From a virus (lineage: Duplodnaviria; Heunggongvirae; Uroviricota; Caudoviricetes): a stretch of DNA of 21,072 nucleotides. The DNA lies in IMG/VR virus record IMGVR_UViG_3300014625_000019. One strand, written 5' to 3'. Numbering within the stretch: position 1 is the first letter of the stretch; every line of letters starts with the position of its first letter. Shown here in pieces: positions 472 through 21,072 of the stretch. A model generated the notes under the pieces. That model did not search any database. It worked only from the letters and a program-made list of their open reading frames with translations, and was not told the DNA's origin. A program made the position numbers and the translations under genes.

Positions 472-489
472 AATATTAGGTAAAATAGA

Positions 490-7537: not shown

Positions 7538-7570
7538 AAAAAAGCCCGCAGAGCTTGTGCTGTGCGGGCT
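7538..7570 (-). terminator. Rho-independent terminator (GC-rich hairpin plus T-run on the minus strand) downstream of the ssrA fragment
   Basis: Minus strand reads AAGCCCGCACAGCACAAGCTCTGCGGGCTTTTTT: a 7-bp GC-rich stem (7544-7550 with 7563-7569) followed by six T. Confidence 0.5.
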
Positions 7571-7605
7571 TAGTAGACTTCATTGTACTTCAAACAACTA
7601 AAAAG

Positions 7606-7637
7606 TGGTGGAGCTGGCGGGAGTTGAACCCGTGTCC
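7606..7637 (-). other. ssrA: 3'-terminal fragment of ssrA (tmRNA): T-arm, acceptor 3' strand and CCA; putative att core / junction repeat
   Basis: Reverse complement GGACACGGGTTCAACTCCCGCCAGCTCCACCA matches my recollection of the E. coli tmRNA 3' end (GGACGCGGGTTCAACTCCCGCCAGCTCCACCA) at 31 of 32 positions. Sequence further 5' in RNA sense (window coordinates above 7637) does not continue as tmRNA, so this is a fragment, not a gene. Confidence 0.55.
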
Positions 7638-8064
7638 ATAGTTATGTAATTCATTGAATTTAAATAGCCAAATATTGTTGATTTTACAAGCGGCTCTTTT
7701 GCGGAACTTTTTCTGTCCTGTTACTGTCTTACTATTTATTTTAAAATAGTTTCATTTGGAATTAATGGTTTGTGGTTGCAGTTTCGGAGATAGATAGCAT
7801 TTTTTGCTAAAAAATATTTTTATAAAAAAATGTGTGTAAAAATGATGTTATGCACAGATTTATGCACAGAGGCTTTGTGATAAACCAGATTGTTTTGGAT
7901 AAGTTTGTTTTTTTGTGATTTGTCAACAATATTATTGACTCTTGTTACTAAAGTGAGTGTTTTCTAAGGTGGTCAGAAGTTGTCCCTTCATGTAATCTTA
8001 TTAGCCATAAAGAACAAAAAATAATTCAACATCATTACCAACTATTTGTAAGATAAGGTTTTTA

Positions 8065-8880
8065 ATGTTGCAGCCAGCAAAAAAAGCATCAGTTATTAGC
8101 GCGCGGCTAACTAAATACCTCAAAGATGGAGTGAGGATTGATGACTTTAGCTTTAGAAGGATGTTACGTGAGATTGAAGCACTTAGAGATCCTGTCTCTG
8201 AGGACTATCTTTTAGCGTTGGTCTATGGTGCACATGGCCAAGTGAATGAGGCGATAGGCTTCTTTGAGCGTTCCTTGCAGGTATGCCATAATGAGGTTGT
8301 TGCAAAGAATTTTCTTGTTTTCTTGTCAGATTACGGTACGTTGAAGAAAAGCTTTGAAACAAGCATTAAGCTTGCTGAAAGCTTCATATCCCCGTTTATT
8401 TATCTTCAAGCTTATGAAAACTCCCTCTTTATGGGGAAGATGGCGTTGGCGGAGAAGTATTTCCAGTCATACTCTAAATTGTTCGGAGATAAGGAGCCTG
8501 AAAAAATGGACAACAATTTTGATGAAGTTGTTTCCCAGGTCGAATCCTTTAAGCAACGTGCCGATCTTTCTGGTTTAGAATATGAACTTATTTTCAATAA
8601 TGTAGCCAATGTCATGGATTCTCAGAAGGTTCATCTTTCGGGAATGCGTTTTTATAATATTTCGGAAGAGAAAGTGAATGCGATTGTATTCATGACAAAG
8701 TCTTCTGATGCTGAACAAATCGCTGATATGAATATTGAGCTTGCTTTTTCAATGGCTGAGCACGATTGTTTAGTCGGTAAAGATTTTGCTGTTTGGTTTG
8801 AATGTAAAGACACACATATTGAGCAGAATGCTATCTCCGAATTAGGTCTGATTACCCGGAGGGTTGCACATGCCGGTTAA
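8065..8880 (+). CDS. Hypothetical protein, 271 aa (first gene of a two-gene moron operon)
   Basis: ATG start preceded by an AAGG SD. Long AT-rich leader upstream (7640-8064). Overlaps the downstream gene by 11 nt. No recognisable motif. Confidence 0.6.
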   Translation: MLQPAKKASVISARLTKYLKDGVRIDDFSFRRMLREIEALRDPVSEDYLLALVYGAHGQVNEAIGFFERSLQVCHNEVVAKNFLVFLSDYGTLKKSFETSIKLAESFISPFIYLQAYENSLFMGKMALAEKYFQSYSKLFGDKEPEKMDNNFDEVVSQVESFKQRADLSGLEYELIFNNVANVMDSQKVHLSGMRFYNISEEKVNAIVFMTKSSDAEQIADMNIELAFSMAEHDCLVGKDFAVWFECKDTHIEQNAISELGLITRRVAHAG

Positions 8881-9253
8881 TAGTCAAGATTTTCTCGGTT
8901 TTGCAAAAGACTGTCATCAACGTAATGACGAAATCGGCTATCGAAATGCTATAGCAAGATCCTACTATGGCGCTTACCATCATGTCTTGCCTTGTATGGT
9001 AAACGGGCCGAAAGACAGTCATCAGGGGCTAATCAATTATTTGCAGGGCGATGCTTCAAGAGGAAGTGAAGTATATGAAGCTAGATATCTAAAAGGGATT
9101 AGTTTTATCCTGAGTCAACTTAAAGCTCAGAGGATTGTTGCAGACTATCGACTTGATCAATCGGTCACTTCTAAACAGTCTGAAGTTGCGATTCTAACAA
9201 CTGAGAGGCTCTTTGCTAAGTGTACGGAAATGCTTAAATCGAGAGCCTCCTAA
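8870..9253 (+). CDS. Hypothetical small protein, 127 aa, with an R-x6-H motif (possible HEPN-like fold)
   Basis: ATG at 8870 preceded by GGAGGG (8857-8862) at 7-nt spacing; the track ORF begins at an in-frame TTG at 8864. Motif AIARSYYGAYHH matches the minimal HEPN R-x(4-6)-H signature, but it is N-proximal, so the assignment is tentative. Confidence 0.55.
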   Translation: MPVNSQDFLGFAKDCHQRNDEIGYRNAIARSYYGAYHHVLPCMVNGPKDSHQGLINYLQGDASRGSEVYEARYLKGISFILSQLKAQRIVADYRLDQSVTSKQSEVAILTTERLFAKCTEMLKSRAS

Positions 9254-9258
9254 TTGAT

Positions 9259-9283
9259 AAAGCCACTTAAGTGGCTTTTTTTG
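9259..9283 (+). terminator. Rho-independent terminator hairpin (AAAGCCAC-TTAA-GTGGCTTT plus T-run), possibly bidirectional
   Basis: Perfect 8-bp inverted repeat with a 4-nt loop followed by TTTTT on the plus strand and an A-run on the other side. The int stop codon (9267-9269) lies in the loop. Confidence 0.5.
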
Positions 9284-10439
9284 TGATATTGCTGGTCGTA
9301 TTACCGTCATATTCCTTTAAATATGAACCATAATGACGAAATAACATTTCCGGCCCTTTATGCCCCATTTGAGCTGCAAGCCAAAACAGGTTTGCTCCCC
9401 GGCTGATATGGCGGGTGGCGAATGTATGCCTAGTTTGATATGGATTTCTGTAACGAATACCTGCTTTTCGCAATGTTGGCACCCATGCTTTTTTCCTGAT
9501 TGCATCAGCACTTGCCCAAGGCTTATTGGTCTTTGGATCTTCAAAGACAGTAGTATCCTTCATGAATGTAAATGGCTTCTGATTTATCAGCGCCAACATT
9601 GCCTCTTCTGTCAGTTCAACTTTCCGAGTACCTGCTTTTGTCTTTGTCCCTTTGATAACACCGACAACACTTGCGCTCTGGACATGGGCAGTTTTTCCAA
9701 CAAAGTCGATATCACGCCATCGAAGGGCACATAATTCAGAACTACGCAGGCCTGTATGTATAGCGAACCGGAACAGATTTTCCCATTGTTTGTTTCCGGC
9801 TGCTGCTAGTAATGCATCAACTTCTGCTGGTGATAGCGGATCAACTACGTAGCTGCTTTCTGCTTCTGACTTATCACTTTGGTAGCGCGAAGCTGTTACT
9901 AACGATACGGGGTTAATTTGAAGTACCCCATCGGTCACGGCTTCATCAAGTGCTGACCGCAGGAAAGATAACTGGTTGCGAATTGTTTTTAAGGTCGTTT
10001 TCTGATTTTGAATCCACGCTTTCAGGGTTGCTGGTGTTAATTCACTTGCAGGGCAAATGTGAAGTGAGGCTAACGCACTACGGCATTTTTTATAGCCACC
10101 AATCGTAGAGGGTGAAAGTTTTCTTGTTTCGCAGATTTCAAGATATTCGTCCAGGTACATCTTTACCGTTTTGCCTGCAGCAGCATTACCAAAAATTTTC
10201 AAACGAGCAGAACGGGGAAAATATTCTGCATAAATGAATGTTCCCCTTTCGATCTTATTATGGATTTCGCCGAGTGTACGCTCGGCGTATTTAATGTTCT
10301 TTGGTGTTACTTCCAGATTGGAAAGCGGCTCACGACATCTAACTCCTTTGTAGGTGAAAGTTATATTGATCGTTTCTCCCTGGCGGTGTTTCCTGATTGT
10401 TACGCCGCGCGGTAGTTTGAGCAGTTTTGTCTGGCCCAT
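9267..10439 (-). CDS. int: Lambda-type tyrosine integrase, 390 aa
   Basis: Catalytic signature GLRSSELCALRW (Arg), RHTFATRH (His-x-x-Arg), LFRHYGSY (Tyr). N-terminal arm-binding-type region. 5' end overlaps xis, as in lambda. Confidence 0.85.
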   Translation of the reverse strand: MGQTKLLKLPRGVTIRKHRQGETINITFTYKGVRCREPLSNLEVTPKNIKYAERTLGEIHNKIERGTFIYAEYFPRSARLKIFGNAAAGKTVKMYLDEYLEICETRKLSPSTIGGYKKCRSALASLHICPASELTPATLKAWIQNQKTTLKTIRNQLSFLRSALDEAVTDGVLQINPVSLVTASRYQSDKSEAESSYVVDPLSPAEVDALLAAAGNKQWENLFRFAIHTGLRSSELCALRWRDIDFVGKTAHVQSASVVGVIKGTKTKAGTRKVELTEEAMLALINQKPFTFMKDTTVFEDPKTNKPWASADAIRKKAWVPTLRKAGIRYRNPYQTRHTFATRHISRGANLFWLAAQMGHKGPEMLFRHYGSYLKEYDGNTTSNITKKAT

Positions 10440-10606
10440 TTTGCAACCTCACTAAGATCAATCCACCTCTCCTTAACGCCTTCAACCTTTAAAACCTGAA
10501 CACCTTCACGCCAAACACCGCGCTGTACACGTTTGTTTATTGCTTCAGGAGTTTCGCCAGTTTCTTTGCAATAAGTTGAGATAGGAACACAATCGAGGTT
10601 CAGCAT
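10400..10606 (-). CDS. xis: Excisionase (Xis-like small DNA-binding protein), about 68 aa
   Basis: Small basic protein immediately upstream of and overlapping int. Internal ATG at 10606 has GGAG 6 nt upstream; the track ORF extends to 10645 but lacks an SD there. Loose resemblance to lambda Xis at the N-terminus. Confidence 0.6.
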   Translation of the reverse strand: MLNLDCVPISTYCKETGETPEAINKRVQRGVWREGVQVLKVEGVKERWIDLSEVAKWARQNCSNYRAA

Positions 10607-10647
10607 ACGTTTCTCCATTATCCCGTCTGCACACGGGAGCAACATTA

Positions 10648-11514
10648 TTAACGAATAGTGTCGTTACTTTGAAGTACAGCAAATGCCATTAATACTTCTA
10701 AAGTATATCTTCTATAAAATTTAACAAAACCAACATAGAAAACATAGACGAAGAAAAAGCTAAGCATTATTGAAAGTAAACTATAAAGATAATCACTATG
10801 AGTACATAATCGATAAATAAAGGTTGGAACTGATACCCAAAATGAAATTATAAAGATTAAACATATGTTTCTGCAAAAACCATATAATGCAACATAGTTT
10901 TGAATTTTTGTTTGATGTTGTTTTGAAAACTCATAAACATAATGATATGCCAATCTGAAGAGATCATCATCAAGTCCGTTTTTATCTTGTAATAATTGGC
11001 GATTTGTTATGAACTTTTTCTCATAACCTTCTTTGATCATTAACCATGTTGTATTAGCTAAATGAAATGGTAGAGATTGAGAATAACATAGTTTTTGTGT
11101 TATAAAATCCCATAGTATTATTGGGCATAATACGCATTTGATTATGCGATTCTTTATTTTTGTTTTTTTATCAGCGCTTCTCTCATCGCATGATGGGCTA
11201 CAAATGCTTTCTGAGGTATCTATCAATTTTTTAAATAGATATTTGGAAGGATATCCTAATTCTTTATTCATGTATTTTTCGATAAAAAATGCTGACGTGA
11301 TAGAAATAAAATGTCCAGCTATATAAGATATAATAACTATTGAAGCGTAGTTCAAAATGCCAAAGATTTGACTTTGACCTCTGAGCAATTCACTTAAGTC
11401 AATAACAATATCTAGATCGAATGTCAAACCACAGAAATACATTAATAGGATAAAAAAACCACCTGGTATTAAATATCCAAGAAAGTCATAGAATGAGAAT
11501 GGATTTTGATTCAT
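10648..11514 (-). CDS. Predicted integral membrane protein (about 4 TM segments, Cys-containing central soluble region), unknown function; AT-rich moron
   Basis: Hydrophobic stretches FLGYLIPGGFFILLMYFCGLTF, IFGILNYASIVIISYIAGHFISITSAFFI, ICLIFIISFWVSVPTFIY, LLSIMLSFFFVYVFYVGFV. ATG at 11514 with GGAG 7 nt upstream; the track ORF starts at TTG 11538. Stop abuts the xis start. Confidence 0.6.
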   Translation of the reverse strand: MNQNPFSFYDFLGYLIPGGFFILLMYFCGLTFDLDIVIDLSELLRGQSQIFGILNYASIVIISYIAGHFISITSAFFIEKYMNKELGYPSKYLFKKLIDTSESICSPSCDERSADKKTKIKNRIIKCVLCPIILWDFITQKLCYSQSLPFHLANTTWLMIKEGYEKKFITNRQLLQDKNGLDDDLFRLAYHYVYEFSKQHQTKIQNYVALYGFCRNICLIFIISFWVSVPTFIYRLCTHSDYLYSLLSIMLSFFFVYVFYVGFVKFYRRYTLEVLMAFAVLQSNDTIR

Positions 11515-11622
11515 TGTTGCTCTCCAATAATTTTTCAATTTGTAATATAACCTATATCTATATGTTAATAAATTACTTATATGTTCTTTTATGGCAGAGT
11601 TTGAATTCGTACGTGCTGATTT

Positions 11623-12147
11623 TTACGACTCAGTTAACTCTTTAAAGCGTTCCATAAACATCCCATAGGTATGGCCTGGCGACAGTGGAATAACTTTGAA
11701 CATCTCTGTTGCCGGGATACCTTCCAGTACGGGCCAGAAAGAGCCATCATCAAGCCCGAGATCGCGGCGTTCGGTTGCCAGCATGATGAGATCGGCATAT
11801 TTCACGGGCGTACTCATAACCGGGGGTAACCCGTATTTCTCACGGATTACGGCGTCTATTTTTTCTTCCATCCGTTTATAGTCAGGAAGAAGGCGTTTCA
11901 GTGGAGCCGGGATGTCCTGGCAATACGCTTCTGTTGCATCATGCATTAACGCTTCAAAAGCAAATTCCTGCGGTACCAGCTGGCTGCAAAGCACCGCATG
12001 TTGGGCGACGCTGTAGAAGTGTGAAAGATGGCCGGCAAAGCGACAGATATTTGAAAGGGAAACCGCGATATCGTTAATATCGATGTTGTCTTTATTTATC
12101 CTGTCATAATAAAAATGTTTCCCGGAAAAAGTTTTAATAAATGACAT
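11623..12147 (-). CDS. yfdR: HD-domain phosphohydrolase (YfdR-like 5'-deoxynucleotidase family)
   Basis: HD signature H...SVAQH...L(x)nLMHDATEAY with downstream acidic residues. ATG at 12147 with GGAG 6 nt upstream; the track ORF starts at GTG 12159. Name assigned from recollection of the CPS-53 prophage yfdR; not verified by search. Confidence 0.7.
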   Translation of the reverse strand: MSFIKTFSGKHFYYDRINKDNIDINDIAVSLSNICRFAGHLSHFYSVAQHAVLCSQLVPQEFAFEALMHDATEAYCQDIPAPLKRLLPDYKRMEEKIDAVIREKYGLPPVMSTPVKYADLIMLATERRDLGLDDGSFWPVLEGIPATEMFKVIPLSPGHTYGMFMERFKELTES

Positions 12148-12275
12148 TTTGTTCTCCACGTTATATGCGCTGCACCGCGCTGAATTTTGGTTAAAGAAAA
12201 CCCTCGCCTTCAGGCGATTATTGAGTCAATTACGTTTCCATAAATGCCCCCGCAGGGGCATTTGCAGTAATGAAA

Positions 12276-13100
12276 TCAGGCGGTGAAAGTCCCAATAAAG
12301 GTTTCTACTTTGCTGTCCTTGAATTTCTCAACAAGCAGATCACGAAATTCGTTAGCCATATCTTCCTGCACCGCTTCCAGCTGAATAATGCGCAGAACCA
12401 GTACAGGACGATCGCCAGTGATAATGCTGAGGCGTAATTTAAACGGACGTTCTTTCAGACCTTCAAACGGAACGCATTTAAACTCAAATGCCACTGGCAT
12501 AATGTCTTTGGTCTTCGCTTCGACAGACTCCATCAGGGAGCGTTTGCCGCTGAAGTCATTATCTTCAAAATCAGCAGTCTGGTTTGCTTCAATCGTGATT
12601 TTACGGACCGCCGCAGCCGCTTTTGTTGCCTGAATGGTGTCACCATTAGCATCAAAGCCCACAAGGTAGTCGGCCCAGTCTTCGATCCATTCTGCCAGTG
12701 ACTTCTGGGAGTTACGCTCGCCGTTAACAGACAACAGAGCAGAGAACGGTGCTGTCTTTTTCAGTTTGAGAGTGGCAGTGTTATCTGCGTGACCTGGCTC
12801 ATCAATAGTACCCAGGTTAAGCACACTGACGGCACGCATATTATCGGCATCGATAAAGCAGCGGGTGCCTTCATCTGCAAGATCTTTAGAATAACGGGTA
12901 AAATCATCGATGCTGGCAGTGGAAAGTGCACCACGGAAACGGAAGCGATTTAAATTAAATTTTTCCAGATCATGAATGCGGAAATTCTCAGGCAATGCCA
13001 CAGCATCGGCACCAATCTTACTGATAATTTCATTAACACCCTGAGCAGAAATAAGGGCATGGATTTGATTAATTGCGGTTGCGTCTAAGTTCTGAGACAT
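12276..13100 (-). CDS. yfdQ: YfdQ-like prophage protein (DUF2303-type), 274 aa
   Basis: Uninterrupted ORF in the same orientation within the yfdP-yfdQ-yfdR order. Size and N-terminus ([12 protein letters not shown]...) match my recollection of E. coli YfdQ; unverified. Confidence 0.65.
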
Positions 13101-13165
13101 AATAAGTCCTCACTATATAAAGATATTCAGTGATGAGATAAATAATCAGTTTATTACGAACGATA

Positions 13166-13528
13166 TTAACGACCTGCTGCGCGGAGTTTTCCGTCAGGTT
13201 CACCGGCAAGAGTCAGTAATTGTCCCTGGTCTTCCTGCAGAATAGTCAGGCGACCACCGCGATTGACATACATCGGCGTTTCGGTGGTGTCTTCTTCGGA
13301 AATTTTCCCGCGGTTAGTTGGGCGAACATATGAGAGTTTGTGTTTGATTTTCACACGGTTCTCATCAAACGGTTCGATTTCCAGGTTGAGCGAGACCTTA
13401 CCTTTGGTTTTCGTGTTCATCACACCGGAAGCGACTTCACTGAGAACTGCGCCGATTTTGGTTTCAAATACGCCGCCGTCCAGCTCCCCGATAAATGCCT
13501 GCACATCAGTACTGCGTTCGCTAGCCAT
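13166..13528 (-). CDS. yfdP: YfdP-like small prophage protein, 120 aa
   Basis: ATG at 13528 (MASERSTDVQ...) with GAGGAG SD 9 nt upstream. The longer track ORF (to 13846) extends into a GC-rich region with Arg/Cys-rich, non-protein-like translation, so the shorter start is preferred. Confidence 0.6.
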   Translation of the reverse strand: MASERSTDVQAFIGELDGGVFETKIGAVLSEVASGVMNTKTKGKVSLNLEIEPFDENRVKIKHKLSYVRPTNRGKISEEDTTETPMYVNRGGRLTILQEDQGQLLTLAGEPDGKLRAAGR

Positions 13529-13576
13529 TTTGCTGCTCCTCATCATATCGACCCTGCAAGGTCGGTTAGTTTCTCC

Positions 13577-13665
13577 ACAAAACAGAGAAGAACACCTGCG
13601 GTGACTGCCGCCCGGATGGATTGGGTTATGAGCCCGTCGTCCGGTGATGCTCTTCTCTGTTTTGT
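13577..13665. repeat. Long inverted repeat (18-bp arms, 17 of 18 complementary) enclosing a 53-nt GC-rich segment; potential large hairpin
   Basis: ACAAAACAGAGAAGAACA (13577-13594) pairs with TGCTCTTCTCTGTTTTGT (13648-13665). Lies in an apparently non-coding GC-rich segment upstream of yfdP. Confidence 0.5.
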
Positions 13666-13929
13666 AAAAAGGACGGTACCAGCCGGAAGCAAGGGTACAA
13701 GCTGGTACCGCCAGGACTACACACAGCATAAAGTTGTGGTGCCGGGTGCCTCCCGGTGCCTGGCGAAGGTTGCACACCAGGCGGGTGGGTATCCACAGAA
13801 GGTCGACTGTCAGCCTCAACCTTAACCCGCGTGCGCTGAGCCGCATTCACCACAACGCTAAGGATTCTCTCTGGTTGAAAATACTTAGCTGTTATGTGCC
13901 TGCTTTTAGCCACATCAGGCGAGGTGGAC

Positions 13930-13981
13930 CTGGTTATTCCCCAACAACAAGGATTCGGTTAATCTGGTTATCCCCAACAAC
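13930..13981 (+). repeat. Two direct repeats CTGGTTAT(T)CCCCAACAAC separated by 15 nt, immediately upstream of the 13997 start codon; possible regulator binding sites
   Basis: Copies at 13930-13948 and 13964-13981 differ by a single extra T. Confidence 0.5.
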
Positions 13982-13996
13982 GCAAAAGGAAAAGAA

Positions 13997-14431
13997 ATGT
14001 CCGGTAATATCTACACGCTGTACAAATCCCACTGTGAAAATGTTGGAAAGTATCGGGGCATTGAAATCAGTGGGGTAGTGTCATCAGTCGAAATAAGCAA
14101 AGTGGAATCAAGGGCAACATTACTTACTCTTCTGGACCTTGTCTTACATGAGCACCGGAAGAAATTCGGCACTCCCTATAATCAGTTGAATGGGAAAAAG
14201 GCTCTGGTTCACCTTATTCTGATGAAGCATCACTGGATGCCAAAACAGATTAATGAGATGAAATTTGATGAACTTCTTCTTTCAATTCAGGATGAACTCA
14301 CACTTGATAAAATAAGCGTAACCGCCCAGAAATTTTTAGATTATCGAGACTGGAGATCACAAATTCATCACTTTGATGATTTTGACGAAAATGAATGGGA
14401 TCCTAATTTGTCTGCACAATATCTAAAGTAA
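13997..14431 (+). CDS. Hypothetical protein, 144 aa
   Basis: ATG with AAGGA SD upstream. Protein-like composition. 3' end overlaps a convergent minus-strand gene by 29 nt. Confidence 0.5.
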   Translation: MSGNIYTLYKSHCENVGKYRGIEISGVVSSVEISKVESRATLLTLLDLVLHEHRKKFGTPYNQLNGKKALVHLILMKHHWMPKQINEMKFDELLLSIQDELTLDKISVTAQKFLDYRDWRSQIHHFDDFDENEWDPNLSAQYLK

Positions 14432-14609
14432 CATCCTGTGATAAAACCGTGATTTCCTGATCCAGTTTTTTTAAGGAGTCTATTGTTTCCTGTCGATAAG
14501 ACAGCACTTCACGAAGCTGGTTTATAGCTGCCAGCTTCTTTGCCATCCACTCGTAAATTTCCTCATTTGTGTATCCGGGCGCGACGATTTTGGGTTCTGT
14601 TTTGTGCAT
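14403..14609 (-). CDS. Hypothetical small protein, 68 aa, first gene downstream of the putative leftward operator region
   Basis: ATG at 14609 with strong GAGGAGG SD 6 nt upstream. Helical/coiled-coil-like composition. Confidence 0.5.
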   Translation of the reverse strand: MHKTEPKIVAPGYTNEEIYEWMAKKLAAINQLREVLSYRQETIDSLKKLDQEITVLSQDVTLDIVQTN

Positions 14610-14668
14610 TTCACACCTCCTCAAGTTATCAGTTACTTGTTGATGGGGACCAGATTGTTAAAGAGCTA

Positions 14669-14691
14669 AGCGTCCTGTAGGGCGCTTTTTT
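14669..14691 (+). terminator. Rho-independent terminator-like hairpin plus T6 on the plus strand
   Basis: AGCGTCC-TGTA-GGGCGCT stem (7 bp including one G-U) followed by TTTTTT. No annotated plus-strand gene ends nearby, so it may terminate read-through from the 13997 gene or a small RNA. Confidence 0.4.
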
Positions 14692-14771
14692 GTTGCTAAC
14701 GAATCATCCTGGACTTTATATGCCCCAGGCGGCTACTTCGTGGGCGTCCTGCCTGTTTGTTGTTTCTCTTG

Positions 14772-14798
14772 GGTACATTATGTATCTCATAGGTACAT
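14772..14798. promoter_or_regulatory. Putative leftward operator (OL-like): repeated GGTACAT half-sites including a near-palindrome
   Basis: GGTACATTATGTATC (14772-14786) and GGTACATTG (14792-14800) share the GGTACA core with the palindromes between cI and cro. Confidence 0.35.
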
Positions 14799-14804
14799 TG
14801 TCAA

Positions 14805-14831
14805 GTATAAAAAAACCTGCCGAAGCAGGTT
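14805..14831 (-). terminator. Rho-independent terminator for cI (minus-strand hairpin ACCTGC-TTCG-GCAGGT followed by T-run)
   Basis: Minus-strand reading AACCTGCTTCGGCAGGTTTTTTTAT, 14 nt downstream of the cI stop. Confidence 0.5.
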
Positions 14832-14843
14832 CATAAACATTGA

Positions 14844-15518
14844 TTAGGCTTTGATTTTGTATCTTCTTGGTTTTCCTGAGAAAATCACAGTTCCAATTAT
14901 AGAGCAATTACCGTTGATCTTAATGTAAGGCTCAGGCCAGTTTGGGTTTAACGCTTTGAGATAACGCTGTGTCCCATCTTCTATCAACCTTTTGAAGGTG
15001 GTTTCACCTGTATCGTGCATCAATGCAATAACGTCGTCACCGTGGCAGGCAGGTACTTCAGGATCGACAAAAATCATGTCTCCCGGGCGGTACTCATCAA
15101 TCATTGAATCACCTATCACCCGCAAGATATAAGTCATTTCCCCACAGGGTACAGGGCAGGGATACGTTTCTGCTGTGCTCAAATCAACCTCAGAATATCC
15201 AACTTCTTTCCATGCTCCGGCCTGTACCCATGATATGACAGGGACTAATGTGATTTGTTTATTAGTGATTGAAACATCAGGTTTTTTTGTGATGTTCGTT
15301 GTCTGGTGTTCTTGATCGAGCCATCCGACAGGCAGGTCGAAACATTTTTCGATGTGTCGTGCCATGCTGTCACCGATATTTTTAGTAGCACCATCTCCCA
15401 TAAACCTGCTGGTCTGGGTTGGCTCGCGATCAATCATAGTGGCAAAGGAAGAATTCCCGCCAACACCATCTCTCAGTTTTCTGGCGTTAGACCGCCGGAT
15501 GTCATGGATTGTTTTCAT
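14844..15518 (-). CDS. cI: CI-like phage repressor with C-terminal LexA/S24-type autopeptidase domain
   Basis: C-terminal region aligns with lambda CI motifs (VISWVQAGAWKE vs VFSHVQAGMF; GDSM vs GNSM; TTFKRLIEDGTQRYLKALNPNWP vs [23 protein letters not shown]). Divergent from the cro-like gene across an operator region. Confidence 0.85.
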   Translation of the reverse strand: MKTIHDIRRSNARKLRDGVGGNSSFATMIDREPTQTSRFMGDGATKNIGDSMARHIEKCFDLPVGWLDQEHQTTNITKKPDVSITNKQITLVPVISWVQAGAWKEVGYSEVDLSTAETYPCPVPCGEMTYILRVIGDSMIDEYRPGDMIFVDPEVPACHGDDVIALMHDTGETTFKRLIEDGTQRYLKALNPNWPEPYIKINGNCSIIGTVIFSGKPRRYKIKA

Positions 15519-15533
15519 AACGAAATTAAAACC

Positions 15534-15605
15534 CTTGTACCGTTAAGGTACAAGTATCTTGAAGGTTCATTTCAATCATGTAATATGTACACCGGAGGTA
15601 CATAT
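15534..15605. promoter_or_regulatory. OR-like operator/promoter region: two palindromes with GTAC cores between divergent cI and cro
   Basis: CTTGTACC-GTTAA-GGTACAAG (15534-15554, perfect 8-bp arms) and ATATGTAC-ACCGGAG-GTACATAT (15583-15605, perfect 8-bp arms). The second overlaps the cro SD. Confidence 0.5.
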
Positions 15606-15608
15606 TGT

Positions 15609-15809
15609 ATGAAAGCGTATTGGGACTCTTTAACCAAAGAACAGCAGGGCGAGTTGGCCGGAAAAGTTGGCTCAACACCTGGCTACTTACGGCTGGTTTT
15701 CAATGGCTATAAAAAAGCCAGTTTTGTGCTGGCTAAAAAACTTGAGCAATGCACGTCAGGTGCAATTACGAAATCTGACTTAAGACCGGATATCTATCCG
15801 AAAGATTAG
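15609..15809 (+). CDS. cro: Cro-like small HTH regulator (YdaS-like), 66 aa
   Basis: ATG at 15609 with GGAGG SD at 10-nt spacing. HTH-like QGELAGKVGSTPGYLRLVFNG and a C-terminal DLRPDIY motif reminiscent of YdaS-type Cro proteins. Divergent to cI. Confidence 0.6.
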   Translation: MKAYWDSLTKEQQGELAGKVGSTPGYLRLVFNGYKKASFVLAKKLEQCTSGAITKSDLRPDIYPKD

Positions 15810-15840
15810 CAGAACACTTTCAATTTTTAACCACAGAACG

Positions 15841-16410
15841 ATGAGGCTAATCGTGGGTAAGCATCACTGGAAAATAGAAAAACAGCCTGAGTGGTACGTG
15901 AAAGCTGTCAGAAAAACTATCGCGGCGTTGCCGGGTGGTTACGCTGAAGCGGCTGATTGGCTCGATGTAACAGAAAACGCTTTATTCAACCGCCTTCGTG
16001 CAGATGGCGATCAGATTTTCCCGCTGGGATGGGCAATGGTTTTACAGCGTGCTGGTGGCACTCACTTCATTGCTGATGCTGTGGCGCAGTCTGCAAATGG
16101 CGTCTTTGTGTCTCTTCCTGACGTCGAGGATGTGGACAACGCCGATATTAACCAGCGTCTGCTGGAAGTCATTGAACAGATCGGCAGTTATTCAAAACAG
16201 ATTCGTTCAGCAATCGAAGACGGTGTAGTGGAACCGCATGAGAAGACAGCAATTAACGACGAGCTGTATCTCTCAATTTCGAAGCTGCAGGAGCATGCAG
16301 CACTTGTCTACAAAATTTTTTGCATTTCAGAAAGTAATGACGCCCGCGAGTGTGCAGCTCCGGGCGTCGTGGCGTCGATTGCTTCTGGTTGTGGAGAAAC
16401 TAACGCATGA
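15841..16410 (+). CDS. Putative phage regulatory protein (CII/CP76-like), 189 aa; C-terminus may be altered by a deletion junction
   Basis: Position immediately downstream of cro and weak resemblance to the 186-type CII family (recollection only). Its 3' end abuts a portal fragment. Confidence 0.4.
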   Translation: MRLIVGKHHWKIEKQPEWYVKAVRKTIAALPGGYAEAADWLDVTENALFNRLRADGDQIFPLGWAMVLQRAGGTHFIADAVAQSANGVFVSLPDVEDVDNADINQRLLEVIEQIGSYSKQIRSAIEDGVVEPHEKTAINDELYLSISKLQEHAALVYKIFCISESNDARECAAPGVVASIASGCGETNA

Positions 16411-17263
16411 ACAGTTTAACAACACACTACCGAAGCTTAACAGTAGCTGGGAGCCGGTCTATCAGGTCACATTCCCGGATGGCTCCACGGATGTACTGAG
16501 CCAGGAGGATATCTGGCATGTGCGCACGCTGACGCTGGACGGACTGGTGGGGCTGAATCCCATCGCCTATGCCCGCGAGGCAATATCGCTGGCGGCAGCG
16601 ACCGAAGAGCACGGGGCCAGACTGTTCAGCAATGGCGCGGTGACGTCGGGTGTGTTGCGTACAGAGCAGACGCTGTCAGATCAGGCTTACGAGCGCCTGA
16701 AGAAAGATTTTGAGGAGCGTCACACCGGGCTTGGCAATGCTCACCGCCCGATGATCCTTGAGATGGGGCTGGACTGGAAGTCGATGGCGCTGAACGCCGA
16801 GGACAGCCAGTTCCTGGAAACCCGCAAGTTTCAACTTGAAGAAATCTGTCGTCTGTTCCGGGTACCGTTGCACATGGTGCAGAACACCGATCGCGCCACC
16901 TTCAACAATATCGAAGAACTGGGGCTCGGATTTATCAACTATTCACTGGTGCCGTATCTGACCCGCATCGAACAGCGGATCAACACCGGACTGGTACGAA
17001 AAAGTAAGCAGGGCGTTTATTACGCCAAATTTAACGCCGGGGCGTTACTGCGCGGGGATATGAAGTCCCGTTTTGAAGCCTACGCCACCGGGATTAACTG
17101 GGGAATTTACTCTCCCAATGACTGCCGCGACCTGGAAGATATGAATCCGCGTCCCGGTGGTGATGTCTATCTCACACCGATGAACATGACCACGAAACCC
17201 TCCGATGGCAGTAAAGCCGGTAAGCAGAAGGATAACGCCAATGCAGACGAAACAACGTCTTGA
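16400..17263 (+). pseudogene. HK97-family phage portal protein, 5'-truncated fragment (C-terminal about 285 codons only)
   Basis: Portal-like segment (GLGNAHRPMILEMGLDWKSMALNAEDSQFLETRKFQLEEICRLFRVPLHMV). The upstream part of the track ORF is an alternate frame of the CII-like gene, so roughly the first 120-130 residues of a normal portal are absent. Confidence 0.55.
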
Positions 17264-17588
17264 TGTACCGCTGAGTCTGAAATCTGTCAGTGACTCCGGT
17301 GAGTTTGAAGGGTATGGCTCCGTCTTTGGTGTAAAGGACAGCCACGATGATGTGGTGATGTCCGGGGCATTTGCTGCTTCCCTGCGGGCGTGGAGTGACA
17401 GAAAAGCGTTACCTGCGCTGCTCTGGCAGCACCGCATGGATGAACCCATCGGTGTTTACACCGAAATGAAGGAAGACGATGTCGGGCTTTACGTCAGGGG
17501 ACGGTTGCTTATTGATGATGATCCCCTCGCAAAACGCGCACATGCACACATGAAGGCCGGTTCGTTACGGCGACGGCGCAGACGCTGA
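17241..17588 (+). pseudogene. HK97-family prohead protease, 3'-truncated fragment
   Basis: ATG at 17241 with AAGGA SD. N-terminal protease-like motifs (FEGYGSVFGVKDSHDDVVMSGAFAASL; LLWQHRMDEPIGVY; EDDVGLYVRGRL). The frame ends abruptly in RRRRRR* where the conserved GLSIG-type region is expected. Confidence 0.5.
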
Positions 17589-18508
17589 TGTCATCCTGTT
17601 CTGCACTGGATGACTGCATCAGTGACAGTTTCAGTAGTTTCAGTATCGATGGCGTGGCAGATTTTGTGCAGAACGACGTCGTCGGTAATGCCAGCACAAT
17701 GCTTGGGTATGTTTCTGATGCGATGAAAGTGGTGGATTCTGCCGTATCGGATGCCGCCAGGCTGTTGCAGGGGGATATCTCGGTACTTCTGCCGCCGCCA
17801 TCGTCAGGCAAAAATTTCGTTGAGCAGGTGCAGAAAATGTGGCGTACCGGGAAACGCCTTTATGGTAACGCCAGCGACCTGGTCACCATGATCAAAACGC
17901 TTTCCGGTGTCAGCCTCGGCAGCGATCTGCAACCGCGCGGCGTCTGGAAAACGGACAGTAAAACCACCGCCACGGCTACGCAGCAGCGTAACGTGGTTGC
18001 CAGCACCCTTCGTACGACCGCAATCAGCGAAGCGGCGTATGCCGTCACCCGATTGCCTGCGCCAACAACTTCCGCGGTGATGCAGAATGCCGCAGTGGGG
18101 CAGGCAACAACACCTGCGCAGAGCACTGGCTGGCCTTCCGTCACGCATCCGGCACTGAACAATGCACCGGCGGTGAAAAACACAGTTGACCTGCCGACGT
18201 GGGAAGAACTGACTGACATTCGCGACACACTGAATACGGCAATTGATAAGGAGTTGTCCCGTACAACCAGTGATGCGCTGTTTCTGGCGCTGCGCCGGGT
18301 GAAAGCAGATCTGAATGCGGATATCAACACGCGCCTTGAACAGTCTGCACGGATCATTCAGCGCACGCCGGATGAGGTTTTACCCGCGCTGGTGCTGGCG
18401 GCGACCTGGTTTGATAACGCGGCGCGTGACGCGGACATTATCCGGCGTAATGCCATTACGCATCCCGGCTTTGTGCCGGTGATCCCTCTGAAGGTGCCAG
18501 TGCAATGA
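17588..18508 (+). CDS. Mu-like tail protein (gpN/DNA-circulation-like, C-terminal portion); probably 5'-truncated
   Basis: Sits immediately upstream of and coupled (ATGA overlap at 18505-18508) to a Mu gpP-like gene. The N-terminus lacks the conserved DNA-circulation N-domain. Family assignment is by gene order and recollection, low confidence. Confidence 0.4.
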   Translation: MSSCSALDDCISDSFSSFSIDGVADFVQNDVVGNASTMLGYVSDAMKVVDSAVSDAARLLQGDISVLLPPPSSGKNFVEQVQKMWRTGKRLYGNASDLVTMIKTLSGVSLGSDLQPRGVWKTDSKTTATATQQRNVVASTLRTTAISEAAYAVTRLPAPTTSAVMQNAAVGQATTPAQSTGWPSVTHPALNNAPAVKNTVDLPTWEELTDIRDTLNTAIDKELSRTTSDALFLALRRVKADLNADINTRLEQSARIIQRTPDEVLPALVLAATWFDNAARDADIIRRNAITHPGFVPVIPLKVPVQ

Positions 18509-19584
18509 ACGATAACGTCACGCTACGGGTAAATGGCCGGGAGTGGAATGGCTGGACATCGGTGCGCATCGGTGCCGGTATTGAACGGCTGGCGCGGGAT
18601 TTCAGTGTGGAGATCACTCGCCAATGGCCGGGAGATGAGGGTATCACCACGCTTCAGCCGCGCATTAAAAACGGTTCAAAAGTGGAAGTGCTGATTGGTG
18701 ATGAGCTGGTAATCACCGGCTGGGTGGAGGCGACGCCCGTTCGGTACGATGCCCGTTCGGTCAGCACCGGTATTGCCGGACGTAGTCTGACGGCTGACCT
18801 GATTGACTGTGCAGCCGAACCGACACAGTTTAACGGACGCTCGCTGGTGCAGATTGCGCAGGCGCTTGCTGCGCCTTTCGGCATTGAGGTGGTGAACAGC
18901 GGTGCGCCGTCGGGTGTTATTCCTGATGTTCAGCCTGATCACGGTGAAACGGTGATTGAGGTAATCAACAAAATACTCGGTCAGCAGCAGGCGCTGGCTT
19001 ACGACGACCCGCACGGCAGGCTGGTAATTGGCGGTATTGGCTCAACGCGGGCACATACCGCGCTGGTACTTGGGGAAAACATCCTTTCCTGTGATACGGA
19101 GAAGAGTATCCGGGAGCGGTTTTCTGTTTACCAGGTGGCGGGGCAGCGTGCCGGAAACGACGATGATTTCGGTGAGGCCACCACCACCGCGCTGCGGGCC
19201 CGCACAGAGGACGCATTTATTGCCCGTTACCGTCCGATGTATATCAGGCAGACAGGGCAGGCTACGGGGGCAGGCTGTATTGCGCGTGCTGACTTTGAAG
19301 CCCGGCAACGGGCGGCGCGGACGGATGAAACCACCTATGTGGTGCAGGGCTGGCGACAGGGTAACGGTACGCTGTGGCAACCCAACCAGCGGGTGATTGT
19401 CTTTGATCCGGTCTGTGGTTTTGACAATACCGAACTGCTTGTTTCGGAAGTCACGTTTACTCAGGACCAGAACGGCACCCTGACGGAAATCCGTGTCGGC
19501 CCGCCTGATGCTTATCTGCCTGAACCTGAAGCCCCCGGCGCGCGGAAAAAGAAAAAAGCCAGAGTACAGGAGGACCCGTTCTGA
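18505..19584 (+). CDS. Mu gpP (gp44)-like baseplate hub / tail protein, 359 aa
   Basis: Uninterrupted GC-rich ORF. Translationally coupled to neighbours on both sides (the stop overlaps the next start at 19584). Sequence and position fit a Mu-like baseplate module. Confidence 0.7.
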   Translation: MNDNVTLRVNGREWNGWTSVRIGAGIERLARDFSVEITRQWPGDEGITTLQPRIKNGSKVEVLIGDELVITGWVEATPVRYDARSVSTGIAGRSLTADLIDCAAEPTQFNGRSLVQIAQALAAPFGIEVVNSGAPSGVIPDVQPDHGETVIEVINKILGQQQALAYDDPHGRLVIGGIGSTRAHTALVLGENILSCDTEKSIRERFSVYQVAGQRAGNDDDFGEATTTALRARTEDAFIARYRPMYIRQTGQATGAGCIARADFEARQRAARTDETTYVVQGWRQGNGTLWQPNQRVIVFDPVCGFDNTELLVSEVTFTQDQNGTLTEIRVGPPDAYLPEPEAPGARKKKKARVQEDPF

Positions 19585-20132
19585 TGAGGACGATTGAAGC
19601 CATGCAGCGACAACTTCTCGGCCTGATTGGGCGGGCAGTGGTGAAAAGCATCAGTGCCGCCACGAAATGTCAGACCGTGGATGTGTCCCTGATTGCCGGT
19701 GAACCCAAAGCCGGGGTTGAACATCTTGAACCCTACGGTTTTACCGCAAGGGCAAACAGCGGTGCGGAAGCGGTGGTGTTGTTTCCGGATGGCGACCGTT
19801 CTCATGCGGTGGTTGTTACGGTGTCGGACCGGCGCTACCGCCTGAAAGGGCTGCAGACGGGTGAGGTGGCTGTCTATGACGATCAGGGGCAGTCTGTGAC
19901 GCTGACCCGGGAGGGGATCGTGGTGGACGGTGCAGGTAAAACGATCACGTTTCGCAATGCGCCCAGAGCACGTTTTGAAATGGACCTGGAAGTGACCGGA
20001 CAGGTGAAAGACCTGTGCGACTACGGCGGCACCACCATGTCAGCGATGCGGCTTGCCTATAACGGCCATTGTCACAGAGAGAACGGTCAGGGCAGTAACA
20101 CCGACAAACCGGATAAAGCGATGGAGGCATGA
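19584..20132 (+). CDS. Baseplate assembly protein V-like (Mu gp45-like), 182 aa
   Basis: gpV-like central region (GEVAVYDDQGQSVTLTREGIVVDGAGKTITF). Overlapping start/stop with neighbours. Confidence 0.7.
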   Translation: MRTIEAMQRQLLGLIGRAVVKSISAATKCQTVDVSLIAGEPKAGVEHLEPYGFTARANSGAEAVVLFPDGDRSHAVVVTVSDRRYRLKGLQTGEVAVYDDQGQSVTLTREGIVVDGAGKTITFRNAPRARFEMDLEVTGQVKDLCDYGGTTMSAMRLAYNGHCHRENGQGSNTDKPDKAMEA

Positions 20133-20557
20133 TGGAACTGTGGCTGACGGTGAACGGTAAACGCACCTGCGCCAGCGCACCGCTGGATCCGCTGACCCGC
20201 GCCGTGGTGATTTCCCTGTTTACCTGGCGGCGGGCGGAGCCTGATGACAATGCCGACGTCCCGATGGGATGGTGGGGGGATACCTGGCCTGCGGTACAGA
20301 ATGACCGTTACGGCTCCCGGCTGTGGCTGCTTCAGCGCGGCAAACTGACCAATCAGCTGGTGCAGACGGTAAGGGGGTATATCCGCGAATGCCTGCAATG
20401 GATGATTGATGACGGTGTGGTGTCCCGTATTGATCTGGATATCCGCCGCACCGGGATTAATGAACTGGGTAACAGTATCACTCTCTGGCGTCGTGACGGA
20501 CCGGTAATGATTTCTTTTGATGATCTGTGGAGTGCGATAACGCATGGCGGACAGTGA
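20129..20557 (+). CDS. Mu gp46-like baseplate protein (GP46/W-like), 142 aa
   Basis: Small ORF between gpV-like and baseplate-J-like genes. ATGA overlap with the upstream gene. Confidence 0.65.
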   Translation: MMELWLTVNGKRTCASAPLDPLTRAVVISLFTWRRAEPDDNADVPMGWWGDTWPAVQNDRYGSRLWLLQRGKLTNQLVQTVRGYIRECLQWMIDDGVVSRIDLDIRRTGINELGNSITLWRRDGPVMISFDDLWSAITHGGQ

Positions 20558-21072
20558 ATTTCAGCGCCCGACGCTGGCAGAAAATATCAGTATGCTCCGT
20601 AACGATTTATTCGCCAGGCTGGACGTCAGCGACACGCTCCGGCGCATGGATGAAGACGTGCGGGCAAAGGTGTATGCGGCGGCGCTGCATACGGTTTACG
20701 GTTACATCGATTATCTGGCAATGAACATGCTGCCTGACCTGTGCGATGAGTCCTGGCTGGCGCGACATGCTGCGATGAAACGGTGTCCGCGCAAGGGGGC
20801 CACGTCTGCCAGCGGGTATATGCGCTGGGAAGGTGTCAGCGATGGCCTGAAGGTGACCGCCGGGAGCGTGATTCAGCGCGATGACCTGGTTCAGTACACG
20901 GCAACTGCCGATGCAACCAGCTCCGGTGGTGTCCTGCGTGTGCCGATCACTTGCTCAACTACAGGCGCGGTCGGTAACGCTGACGACGGTACGGCATTAA
21001 TCCTGGTCACGCCGGTGAATGGTCTGCCGTCTTCCGGTGTTGCAGATACCCTGACTGGCGGATTCGATACTG
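20545..21072 (+). CDS. Baseplate J-like protein (Mu gp47-like), partial: 5' part only, runs off the window end
   Basis: ATG at 20545 overlapping the previous gene by 13 nt. Open frame to the window end (MADSEFQRPTLAENISMLRNDLFARLDVSD...). Not in the ORF track because no stop is reached. Confidence 0.65.

What the first reader, a model, noticed from the sequence alone, without database searches (positions are those of the whole stretch)
15841..18508. Two deletion junctions leave a defective prophage with regulatory, portal-fragment, protease-fragment and Mu-like baseplate parts
The CII-like gene runs straight into a portal ORF that lacks roughly the first 120-130 residues. The prohead protease starts normally but ends in an out-of-context RRRRRR* after about 115 residues, directly followed by a tail protein lacking its expected N-domain. 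Replication, lysis, terminase, major capsid, sheath, tube and tape-measure genes are all absent between the immunity region and the baseplate genes. The retained immunity, int/xis and moron cargo are consistent with a domesticated cryptic prophage kept for its accessory genes.
Basis: partly seen in the sequence, partly recalled or inferred. Interest (0 to 1): 0.4.

Follow-up and report, generated by a model that had tools for sequence, protein, structure and literature searches.

The report
Twice-deleted e14/SfV-like prophage remnant
This is an ordinary dead prophage of the E. coli e14/SfV family that lost about 21 kb in two internal deletions, but one of its breakpoints falls on a spot in the portal gene where at least nine independent deletions, including the classic one in E. 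coli K-12, start or stop.

Summary
Against an intact relative (E. coli WP2-S18-ESBL-07, locus L003), the window carries two clean deletions.

- Junction 1 (16428-16432, 5-bp microhomology TACCG) removes 12,560 bp. It runs from 22 nt after the ymfL (CII-like) stop codon to codon 136 of the portal gene.
- Junction 2 (17567|17568, blunt) removes 8,276 bp. It runs from codon 110 of the HK97-type prohead protease to codon 130 of the Mu gpN-like DNA circularization protein.

Replication, Q, lysis, HNH, terminase, capsid, sheath, tube and tape-measure genes are all gone. The repressor is 100% identical to K-12 e14 YmfK, and the baseplate genes are about 98% identical to Shigella phages SfII/SfI/SfV.

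The "domesticated" reading is not supported. The retained genes are 98-100% identical to the intact relative. Neither junction occurs in 5,426 complete E. coli genomes. Only one metagenome contig shares junction 2.

One result was unexpected. Deletion endpoints in this prophage family are strongly non-random. GG-TA-CC in the portal is an endpoint in nine distinct events, including K-12 beeE|jayE, and two further sites recur. All three recurrent sites carry ACC(C)GA. ACCG is the nicking site reported for terminase-adjacent phage HNH nickases, and this family encodes a homologue. That link is a hypothesis, not a demonstration.

The parts
9267..10439 (-). Prophage tyrosine integrase (390 aa), intact
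   Evidence: 100% identical to the L003 integrase. Pfam: Arm-DNA-bind_2 plus Phage_integrase.
10403..10606 (-). Small 68-aa gene next to int, in the excisionase position; function not shown
   Evidence: 100% identical to the L003 68-aa protein. The 10400-10645 ORF that contains it has no Pfam hit.
14844..15518 (-). CI-type repressor with an S24 self-cleavage domain, identical to e14 YmfK
   Evidence: 224/224 residues identical to K-12 YmfK. Pfam Peptidase_S24.
15609..15809 (+). Cro-like regulator (YmfT type, 66 aa)
   Evidence: Translation. The same 66-aa gene lies upstream of ymfL in related loci. Weak YdaS_toxin/HTH Pfam hit.
15841..16410 (+). ymfL, CII-like regulator (Phage_CP76), complete
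   Evidence: Pfam PF06892, E 1.3e-13. Full-length match to L003 YmfL. The exact 189-aa protein occurs in 22 contigs read from the public collection, 10 of which were shown.
16407..16432 (+). Left flank of junction 1: the first 8 codons of a ymfM-type gene, which overlaps the ymfL stop and now reads out of frame into the portal
   Evidence: Translation MNSLTTHY.... Homology of every related locus ends at 16432. In K-12 the gene after ymfL is the cell-division inhibitor ymfM.
16428..16432 (.). Junction 1: 5-bp microhomology TACCG; 12,560 bp deleted relative to L003 (10890-23449)
   Evidence: The right side is recurrent endpoint A of the portal gene.
16427..17263 (+). Portal gene fragment (residues 136-413 of 413), with no start codon of its own
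   Evidence: tblastn 98.6% over residues 135-413. Pfam Phage_portal profile 95-321 of 321.
17241..17588 (+). HK97-type prohead protease fragment: 109 native residues, then RRRRRR and a stop
   Evidence: tblastn residues 1-109, 100% identical. Pfam Peptidase_S78 profile 6-106 of 165. Sequence.
17567..17568 (.). Junction 2: blunt, no microhomology; 8,276 bp deleted relative to L003 (24590-32865)
   Evidence: The identical junction is in contig L007.
17570..18508 (+). C-terminal 312 residues of the Mu gpN-like DNA circularization protein. An internal ATG at 17588 gives the 306-aa ORF. The DNA_circ_N domain is lost.
   Evidence: tblastn residues 131-442, 99.7%. No Pfam hit here, versus DNA_circ_N at 7-93 in the intact protein.
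18505..19584 (+). Baseplate hub protein (Mu gpP/gp44-like), intact
   Evidence: 100% identical to L003. Pfam GpP-like_1st, Gp44-like_2nd, GpP_4th.
19584..20132 (+). Baseplate assembly protein V (Mu gp45-like), intact
   Evidence: 99.5% to L003. Pfam Phage_Mu_Gp45.
20129..20557 (+). Mu gp46-like baseplate protein, intact
   Evidence: 100% to L003. Pfam GP46.
20544..21072 (+). Baseplate J (gp47-like), cut off by the end of the window
   Evidence: tblastn residues 1-176 of 352, 98.3%. The full 352-aa gene is present in the identical contig L007.

Best explanation
Shown:
- The region is a recently decayed prophage of the e14/SfV family: lambdoid early genes, an HK97-type head and a Mu-type contractile tail.
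- Two illegitimate deletions, one with 5 bp of microhomology and one blunt, removed 12.6 kb and 8.3 kb.
- What remains is int, a small 68-aa gene in the excisionase position, the e14 immunity region (ymfK repressor, cro, ymfL), three gene stumps (portal C-terminus, protease N-terminus, gpN C-terminus) and an intact baseplate module.

Inferred:
- It cannot replicate, lyse, package or build a head or tail.
- It should still confer e14-type immunity and may still be excisable.
- Because Q and the late promoter are gone, the stumps and baseplate genes now lie directly downstream of cro-ymfL. They would be transcribed, if at all, from the early rightward promoter after SOS cleavage of the repressor.

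How the deletions arose (inferred):
- A break or stalled end formed at a preferred site and was joined to a distant site with little or no homology.
- Junction 1 uses the family's strongest recurrent endpoint, GG-TA-CC followed by GAAG in the portal gene.
- The leading but unproven candidate for what creates these preferred ends is the phage's own terminase-adjacent HNH endonuclease. It is a full-length homologue of nickases that cut CG|GT, which is AC^CG on the other strand. Its gene lies inside deletion 1.
For: Identity and anatomy:
- Collinear alignment to an intact prophage, with two clean junctions.
- Per-gene tblastn and Pfam truncations.
- Repressor 100% identical to K-12 YmfK.
- About 98% DNA identity to SfII/SfI/SfIV/SfV over the tail-baseplate region.
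- An independent contig, L007, carries junction 2 at 100% identity.
- No strong terminator-like site on the + strand between ymfL and the baseplate genes.

Recurrent endpoints:
- The portal TA at L003 23450/51 is an endpoint in K-12 e14, L008, L022, L023 and L024 (left arm kept).
- It is also an endpoint in the window, L051, L054 and L055/L059 (right arm kept). Sources.
- IMG/VR scans one base to either side found no junctions.
- Site B (32580/81) and site C (29041/42) each serve in 4 events.

Nickase link:
- The literature-defined motif SG|GT/AC|CS sits at 12 of 43 distinct endpoint sites, against 3.7 +/- 1.8 expected.
- The family's 116-aa HNH gene next to terS has the GVE2 HNH endonuclease (5H0M) as its best match among solved structures. 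The match is full length, E 2.9e-12.
- That enzyme and N.phiGamma nick CG|GT / AC^CGR (PMC3592412; PMC4027164 abstract).
Against: Against the main statement: nothing substantial. Junction 1 has no second, independent contig.

Against the nickase step:
- ACCGR occurs 106 times in 30 kb of L003, and most copies are not endpoints.
- A very similar site, GGTACCGAT at L003 25256, is not used in the sample. The motif is therefore not sufficient.
- I recognised the motif after seeing the data.
- The predicted nick (AC|CG) lies 1 nt from the apparent break (A|CCG) at sites A and B, unless paired nicks and fill-in are assumed.
- The right side of junction 2 has no motif.
- HK97 gp74, the best-known relative in this position, is described as non-specific.
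- The specificity of the E. coli enzyme is unknown.
- Transcription of the stumps from the early promoter is untested.
Confidence: 0.85

Rival explanations
1. The remnant is a domesticated element. The deletions were selected and the rest is kept by purifying selection because the immunity region, int/xis or cargo genes benefit the host.
For: The immunity, int and baseplate genes are intact. Cryptic prophages of K-12, including e14, are reported to help under stress (PMC3105296 abstract). Deleting lysis and replication genes removes a lethal load.
Against: - 98-100% identity to an intact relative leaves no room to detect selection, and the stumps have not decayed further.
- The junctions are absent from 5,426 complete E. 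coli genomes.
- Other strains carry different deletions of the same prophage, which points to repeated recent decay rather than one conserved product.
- The cargo has no recognisable defence system.
- Part of the cargo is a separate island.
Confidence: 0.12
2. The recurrent endpoints are real but have another cause. Candidates are a replication pause or template switch at these sequences, a host nuclease or topoisomerase with a preferred site, RusA-type cutting 5' of CC at reversed forks, or a recombinase exchanging at the TA.
For: - Both arm types keep the central TA at site A.
- Microhomology of 0-5 nt is typical of template switching or end joining.
- These prophages encode RusA, which from memory cuts 5' of CC; sites A and B read A|CC.
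- TA touches the break at 18 of 36 distinct sites, against 8.4 expected.
Against: - There is no hairpin or palindrome beyond 6 bp.
- GGTACC occurs 10 times in L003 (6 between positions 10000 and 40000), and only the portal copy is an endpoint in the sample.
- The site does not resemble the pix sites of the Pin invertase.
- The integrases differ between the prophages that share the hot spot.
- One partner (L051) has TG, not TA, at the crossover.
- CC alone is far too common to define three sites.
Confidence: 0.3
3. One or both junctions are assembly chimeras and do not exist in any cell.
For: Junction 1 was not found in any other public sequence searched.
Against: - Junction 2 is present at 100% identity in an independently assembled metagenome contig.
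- Junction 1 has the same architecture (partner|TACCGAAGC) as four independent junctions in other genomes.
- A 5-bp overlap is too short to mislead an assembler.
Confidence: 0.03

Closest known systems
Cryptic prophage e14 of E. coli K-12 (ymfK-ymfT-ymfL ... beeE, jayE, ymfQ, pinE)
   Same: The immunity region is the same: YmfK 100% identical, and DNA 99% identical over 1.7 kb. The head and tail modules are of the same type. Both are defective through two internal deletions, one of which ends at the same TA of the portal gene.
   Different: - e14 keeps the N-terminal portal stump (beeE) joined to baseplate J. This element keeps the C-terminal portal part joined to ymfL.
- e14 keeps ymfM, part of the terminase, and ymfR. 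This element keeps the baseplate genes gp44-gp46 that e14 lost.
- The integrase differs, and probably the attachment site too: K-12 e14 sits in icd, whereas the intact relative L003 lies next to ssrA.
- The left arm here carries yfdP-yfdQ-yfdR genes as in CPS-53.
Shigella serotype-converting phages SfV, SfII, SfI, SfIV (functional relatives)
   Same: 97.7-98.1% DNA identity over the gpN-baseplate region. They have the same head-tail layout, and SfI is described as closely related to SfV and e14 (PMC3636060).
   Different: Those are complete, inducible cos phages with O-antigen modification genes and thrW integration. This element lacks all replication, lysis, packaging, head, sheath, tube and tape-measure genes.
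Terminase-adjacent phage HNH nicking endonucleases (N.phiGamma, N.phiE2 of GVE2, N.phi105)
   Same: The family's 116-aa HNH protein sits in the same position, just before terS. It aligns over its full length to the GVE2 enzyme. The published nick sites CG|GT / AC^CG(R) match the core of the recurrent endpoints.
   Different: The specificity of the E. coli prophage enzyme has not been measured. The gene is not in the window, because it lies inside deletion 1. A role of such nickases in prophage decay was not found in the papers searched.

Membership tests
e14/SfV-like lambdoid prophage | e14-type immunity region (ymfK repressor, cro-like ymfT, CII-like ymfL) | tested here: met
   YmfK 224/224 identical to K-12. 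99% DNA identity over window 14695-16432. Pfam S24 and Phage_CP76.
e14/SfV-like lambdoid prophage | HK97-type head genes (portal, S78 prohead protease) followed by Mu-type baseplate genes (gpN, gp44-gp47) | tested here: met
   Pfam hits. 98-100% protein identity to the intact prophage L003. About 98% DNA identity to SfII/SfV.
e14/SfV-like lambdoid prophage | Pin invertase and invertible tail-fibre segment at the right end | not testable with these tools
   This part lies beyond the window. The identical contig L007 reaches only the tail-fibre start, and its last 132 nt match the L003 invertible segment in inverted orientation.
Defective (cryptic) prophage | Loss of genes essential for replication, lysis, packaging and particle assembly | tested here: met
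   All genes in L003 10890-23449 and 24590-32865 are absent.
Defective (cryptic) prophage | No particles or plaques after induction | not testable with these tools
   Needs a mitomycin C induction experiment.
Domesticated prophage (conserved remnant under purifying selection) | The same remnant conserved across a host lineage | tested here: not met
   No complete E. coli genome of 5,426 holds either junction. A single metagenome contig shares junction 2.
Domesticated prophage (conserved remnant under purifying selection) | dN/dS well below 1 in the retained genes since the deletion | not testable with these tools
   Retained proteins are 98-100% identical to the intact relative, which leaves too few substitutions.
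Phage tail-like bacteriocin (tailocin) | Sheath, tube and tape-measure genes alongside the baseplate, without head genes | tested here: not met
   Sheath, tube and tape-measure genes lie inside deletion 2.
CG|GT-type HNH nickase (for the family's HNH gene, L003 20150-20500) | Sequence homology to characterised members, and a position next to terS | tested here: met
   Best hit among solved structures is 5H0M (GVE2 HNH endonuclease), residues 1-114 against 1-126, E 2.9e-12. Gene order HNH-terS-terL-portal.
CG|GT-type HNH nickase (for the family's HNH gene, L003 20150-20500) | Strand-specific nicking at CG|GT / AC^CG | not testable with these tools
   Needs purified enzyme and run-off sequencing. 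Only indirect enrichment of the motif at deletion endpoints is available.

The most novel reading that the evidence does not exclude
Decay of e14/SfV-family prophages is not random. It is seeded at a few specific sequences: TACCGAAG in the portal, TACCCGAA in gpN and TGACCGAG in the sheath gene. The proposed cause is that the phage's own terminase-associated HNH endonuclease nicks there, with paired nicks at GGT..ACC making a double-strand break. The ends are then joined with little homology. On this reading the classic beeE|jayE and oweE|aaaE junctions of K-12 e14, and junction 1 of this window, would be scars of self-inflicted cuts.
Probability: 0.3. Interest if true: 0.65.

Novelty: new member of a known kind. 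Interest (0 to 1): 0.42.

Why it matters
The element itself is one more defective e14-like prophage and changes nothing. The by-product may matter more.

- Nucleotide-exact reuse of deletion endpoints across unrelated strains was not reported in the papers I could search. It includes a junction carried by every K-12 laboratory strain.
- If a phage-encoded nickase creates these ends, two questions get a mechanistic and testable answer: why some prophage families decay quickly, and why they decay into similar remnants.
- It would also assign an in vivo side effect to the widespread terminase-adjacent HNH enzymes.
- Practically, the three sites predict where new deletions in this family will fall.

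Tried and rejected
Searches for the window's source or for the same junctions:
- Exact junction patterns in one genome per species: nothing.
- Exact look-ups of junction-specific ORFs of 127, 115, 341 and 322 aa: nothing.
- JGI metagenome scan for new left-arm junctions: only two unrelated chance matches.

Explanations for the portal hot spot that were considered and dropped:
- Restriction at GGTACC. The site occurs 10 times in L003, and only the portal copy is an endpoint in the sample.
- Cruciform or hairpin. No inverted repeat was found, and the fold z-score is +0.6.
- A Chi site. The nearest one is about 100 nt away.
- Quasi-sites of the Pin invertase. The pix sites read AAACC-TT-GGTTT, which is unlike the hot spot.
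- Pseudo-cos cleavage. The SfI cohesive end is TGCCCGCCCC (PMC3636060; sequence).
- A shared integrase. The integrases differ between the affected prophages.
- A Ter site, F-type nic site or CRISPR target. These were judged from memory of the consensus sequences only and do not fit the position of the break.
- A strict 'TA in both partners' rule. It fails for L051.

Other dead ends:
- Surveying site B through the E. coli genome search gave mostly mosaic boundaries, not junctions.
- The Mehta et al. 2004 paper on e14 is not held in the library.
- Literature searches for a reported prophage deletion hot spot found nothing.
Full report
**1. What is there**

The window is E. coli-type DNA. Positions 9000-21072 match thousands of E. 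coli genomes in pieces, but no complete genome covers them contiguously.

A nearly intact relative was found in E. coli WP2-S18-ESBL-07 (locus L003). Its gene order is:
- integrase, a small 68-aa gene, yfdR-yfdQ-yfdP, repressor, cro, ymfL;
- replication genes, Dam, RusA, KilA-N, DUF968, Q;
- lysis genes, HNH, terS, terL;
- portal, HK97-type protease, major capsid protein, connectors;
- sheath, tube, tape measure, DNA circularization protein (Mu gpN-like);
- baseplate gp44-gp48, tail fibres, Pin.

blastn of the window against L003 gives four collinear blocks:

| Window | L003 | Identity |
|---|---|---|
| 6227-14764 | 551-9088 | 97.2% |
| 15825-16432 | 10288-10889 | 93.8% |
| 16428-17567 | 23450-24589 | 98.2% |
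| 17568-21072 | 32866-36370 | 99.5% |

The immunity block (14650-16432) is a different allele from L003. It is 99% identical to several other prophages and to K-12 e14. Its repressor is 224/224 identical to K-12 YmfK.

**2. The two junctions**

Junction 1 reads ...AACAACACAC-TACCG-AAGCTTAACAG...
- TACCG is shared by both parents.
- The left parent is the sequence 22 nt downstream of the ymfL stop codon. In many relatives these bases are the first eight codons of a ymfM-type gene.
- The right parent is codon 136 of the 413-codon portal gene.
- 12,560 bp are missing.

Junction 2 reads ...GGTTCGTTA|CGGCGACGG... with no shared base.
- The left parent is codon 109/110 of the 216-codon prohead protease.
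- The right parent is codon 130 of the 442-codon DNA circularization gene.
- 8,276 bp are missing.
- The fusion reads six arginine codons and then TGA. That stop overlaps an internal ATG of the gpN frame, which is why a 306-aa ORF appears.

tblastn and Pfam confirm the truncations.
- The portal lacks profile positions 1-94.
- The protease lacks the last third of the S78 domain. That includes a GLSIGY motif that follows the break in intact copies. From memory, the nucleophile serine lies in this motif; I did not test that.
- gpN lacks its only Pfam domain, DNA_circ_N.

All other retained genes are 98-100% identical to L003 with no new frameshift.

**3. Family**

- Tail-baseplate DNA is 97.7-98.1% identical to Shigella phages SfII, SfI, SfIV and SfV.
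- SfI is described as closely related to SfV and e14 (PMC3636060).
- K-12 e14 is itself a twice-deleted member. Its oweE|aaaE junction joins L003 11445 to 21714, and its beeE|jayE junction joins 23451 to 36113.

The window is therefore a sibling of e14 with different deletions.

**4. Is it domesticated?**

I see no evidence for it.
- Neither junction is in 5,426 complete E. coli genomes. One search gives at most 61% coverage, and that comes from strains with a different deletion.
- Neither junction is in GTDB species representatives.
- Junction 2 recurs once, in a human bile metagenome contig that is 100% identical over 3,756 nt (L007).
- That contig shows that the next 1.5 kb holds baseplate J, gp48 and a tail-fibre start, and no sheath or tube gene.
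- Other strains carry other deletions of the same prophage type.
- Window 75-7637 is a separate island: TIGR04141 protein, two ParB-like proteins, a large serine recombinase and a P4-type integrase. It is found without this prophage elsewhere.
- PADLOC finds no known defence system in the cargo.

The picture is one of frequent, recent decay.

**5. Unexpected: recurrent endpoints**

The right side of junction 1 is L003 23450. K-12 beeE ends at 23451.

Five distinct junctions keep the left arm, all ending ...GTGTGGTA:

| Source | Joined to L003 |
|---|---|
| K-12 e14 | 36113 |
| L008 | 27258 |
| L022 | 37395 |
| L023 | 32580 |
| L024 | 25573 |

Sources.

Four distinct junctions keep the right arm, all starting at or just before TACCGAAGC. 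They are the window, L051, L054 and L055/L059.

How sharp the site is:
- IMG/VR scans for a break one base earlier found only a synonymous GTG allele and no junction. Scans for a break one base later found nothing.
- At least 120 contigs carry the intact site.
- Within the 160-nt stretch sampled without bias by the 247-aa product look-up, four distinct ends are at this site and two are elsewhere. A further nearby end, at 23470, comes from the E. coli genome search.

A survey of all fetched loci against L003 showed two more recurrent sites.
- Site B lies at 32580/81, with the sequence ACGAATA|CCCGAACC. It serves in L017, L023, L059 and L050.
- Site C lies at 29041/42, with the sequence GCTGGTGA|CCGAGATG in the common allele. 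It serves in L055, L008, L054 and L050.
- L054 keeps exactly the segment from the portal site (A) to site C, embedded between dsdC and a truncated integrase.
- TACCGAAG occurs three times in the L003 prophage, and two of those copies are endpoints.

**6. A candidate cause**

- The shared core ACC(C)GA contains ACCG. That is the reported nicking site of terminase-adjacent phage HNH nickases: N.phiGamma YCG|GT = AC^CGR, N.phiE2 CG|GT, and relatives with SG|GT or CSG|GT (PMC4027164 abstract; PMC3592412 Table 1).
- This prophage family has a 116-aa HNH gene directly before terS. Its best match among solved structures is the GVE2 enzyme, over its full length.
- With the literature motif SG|GT/AC|CS, 12 of 43 distinct endpoint sites coincide with a predicted nick, against 3.7 +/- 1.8 for random positions. 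With the strict CG|GT motif and 2 nt of slack, the count is 11 against 4.5.
- Sites A (G|GTAC^C), C (G|GTGAC^C) and the K-12 oweE site (G|GTAAC^C) have opposed motifs 4-5 bp apart. Two nicks there would make a break with 5' overhangs. Fill-in would let both arms keep the central bases, as observed.
- The left side of junction 2 lies between CG|GT and AC^CG, with CGGT and ACCG separated by 6 nt (CGGTTCGTTAACCG).

Caveats:
- The motif is common: 106 ACCGR in 30 kb.
- A near-copy of site A is unused in the sample.
- I recognised the motif after seeing the data.
- The specificity of this enzyme is unknown.

I rate this step at about 0.3. That the hot spots are real, whatever their cause, I rate at about 0.85.

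**7. Function of the remnant (inferred)**

- It should give e14-type immunity through the intact S24 repressor, and it may still excise through the intact integrase.
- No strong terminator-like site lies on the + strand between ymfL and the baseplate genes. The stumps and baseplate genes may therefore be read through from the early promoter after SOS induction.
- The ymfM cell-division inhibitor of e14 is lost.

**8. Verdict**

The 'domesticated' part is unsupported. The element is an ordinary new member of a known kind. The recurrent endpoints are the part worth a follow-up.

Noticed in passing
window 16428-16432; L003 23448-23453; K-12 L019 11136-11139: The GG-TA-CC site of the portal gene is a deletion endpoint in nine distinct events with different partners. 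They include the K-12 e14 beeE|jayE junction and junction 1 of this window. Left arms all end in GGTA, and right arms all start at or just before TACC.
   Followed up: yes
L003 32580/32581 and 29041/29042: Two further recurrent endpoints. One is in the DNA circularization gene (AATA|CCCGAA) and one is in the sheath gene (GGTGA|CCGAG in the common allele). Each serves in 4 events, with either arm kept. L054 retains exactly the segment between the portal site and the sheath site.
   Followed up: partly
L003 20150-20500 (inside deletion 1, so not in the window): A 116-aa HNH endonuclease gene lies directly before terS. It is a full-length homologue of the GVE2 HNH nickase (5H0M), whose published site CG|GT / AC^CG matches the core of the recurrent endpoints.
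   Followed up: partly
window 75-7637: A separate integrative island next to the prophage. It holds a TIGR04141 protein (490-2097), two ParB-like genes, a 518-aa large serine recombinase and a 409-aa P4-type integrase. An HxsA fragment lies just upstream, at 61-471. The island is 99.9% identical in other E. coli strains that lack this prophage. PADLOC has no hit for the TIGR04141 protein, one of the ParB-like genes or the recombinase, and only a weak partial Type II methyltransferase hit for the other ParB-like gene.
   Followed up: partly
window 8065-9253: Two overlapping genes (271 aa and 129 aa) lie between the two integrases. They have no Pfam, NCBIfam or PADLOC hit and are 99.6-100% identical to the same pair in L003.
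   Followed up: no
window 10648-11538 (- strand): A low-GC (about 31%) 288/296-aa predicted membrane protein lies between the small gene next to int and yfdR, in a typical moron position. Its only hit is a weak PADLOC match to Csx27 (E 1.4e-5).
   Followed up: no
L052 about 9983, L057, L058 (portal gene, about 70 nt after the hot spot): Otherwise intact prophages in several genomes carry the same amber codon (CAG to TAG) in the portal gene, splitting it into 160-aa and 247-aa products. L053 has a 2-nt deletion at the same place.
   Followed up: no
L028 7304-9817 (E. coli E92): An 837-aa gene annotated as 'portal protein' lies directly after a truncated terS gene, with portal homology to L003 beginning only at 23470-23473. 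It looks like a fusion of upstream sequence, probably terL, to the portal C-terminal part. This prophage has a siphovirus-type tail behind the same head module.
   Followed up: no
window 13545-13853 (- strand): A hypothetical gene that is annotated as frameshifted in L003 and is 100% identical here. It is therefore an older pseudogene that predates the two deletions.
   Followed up: no
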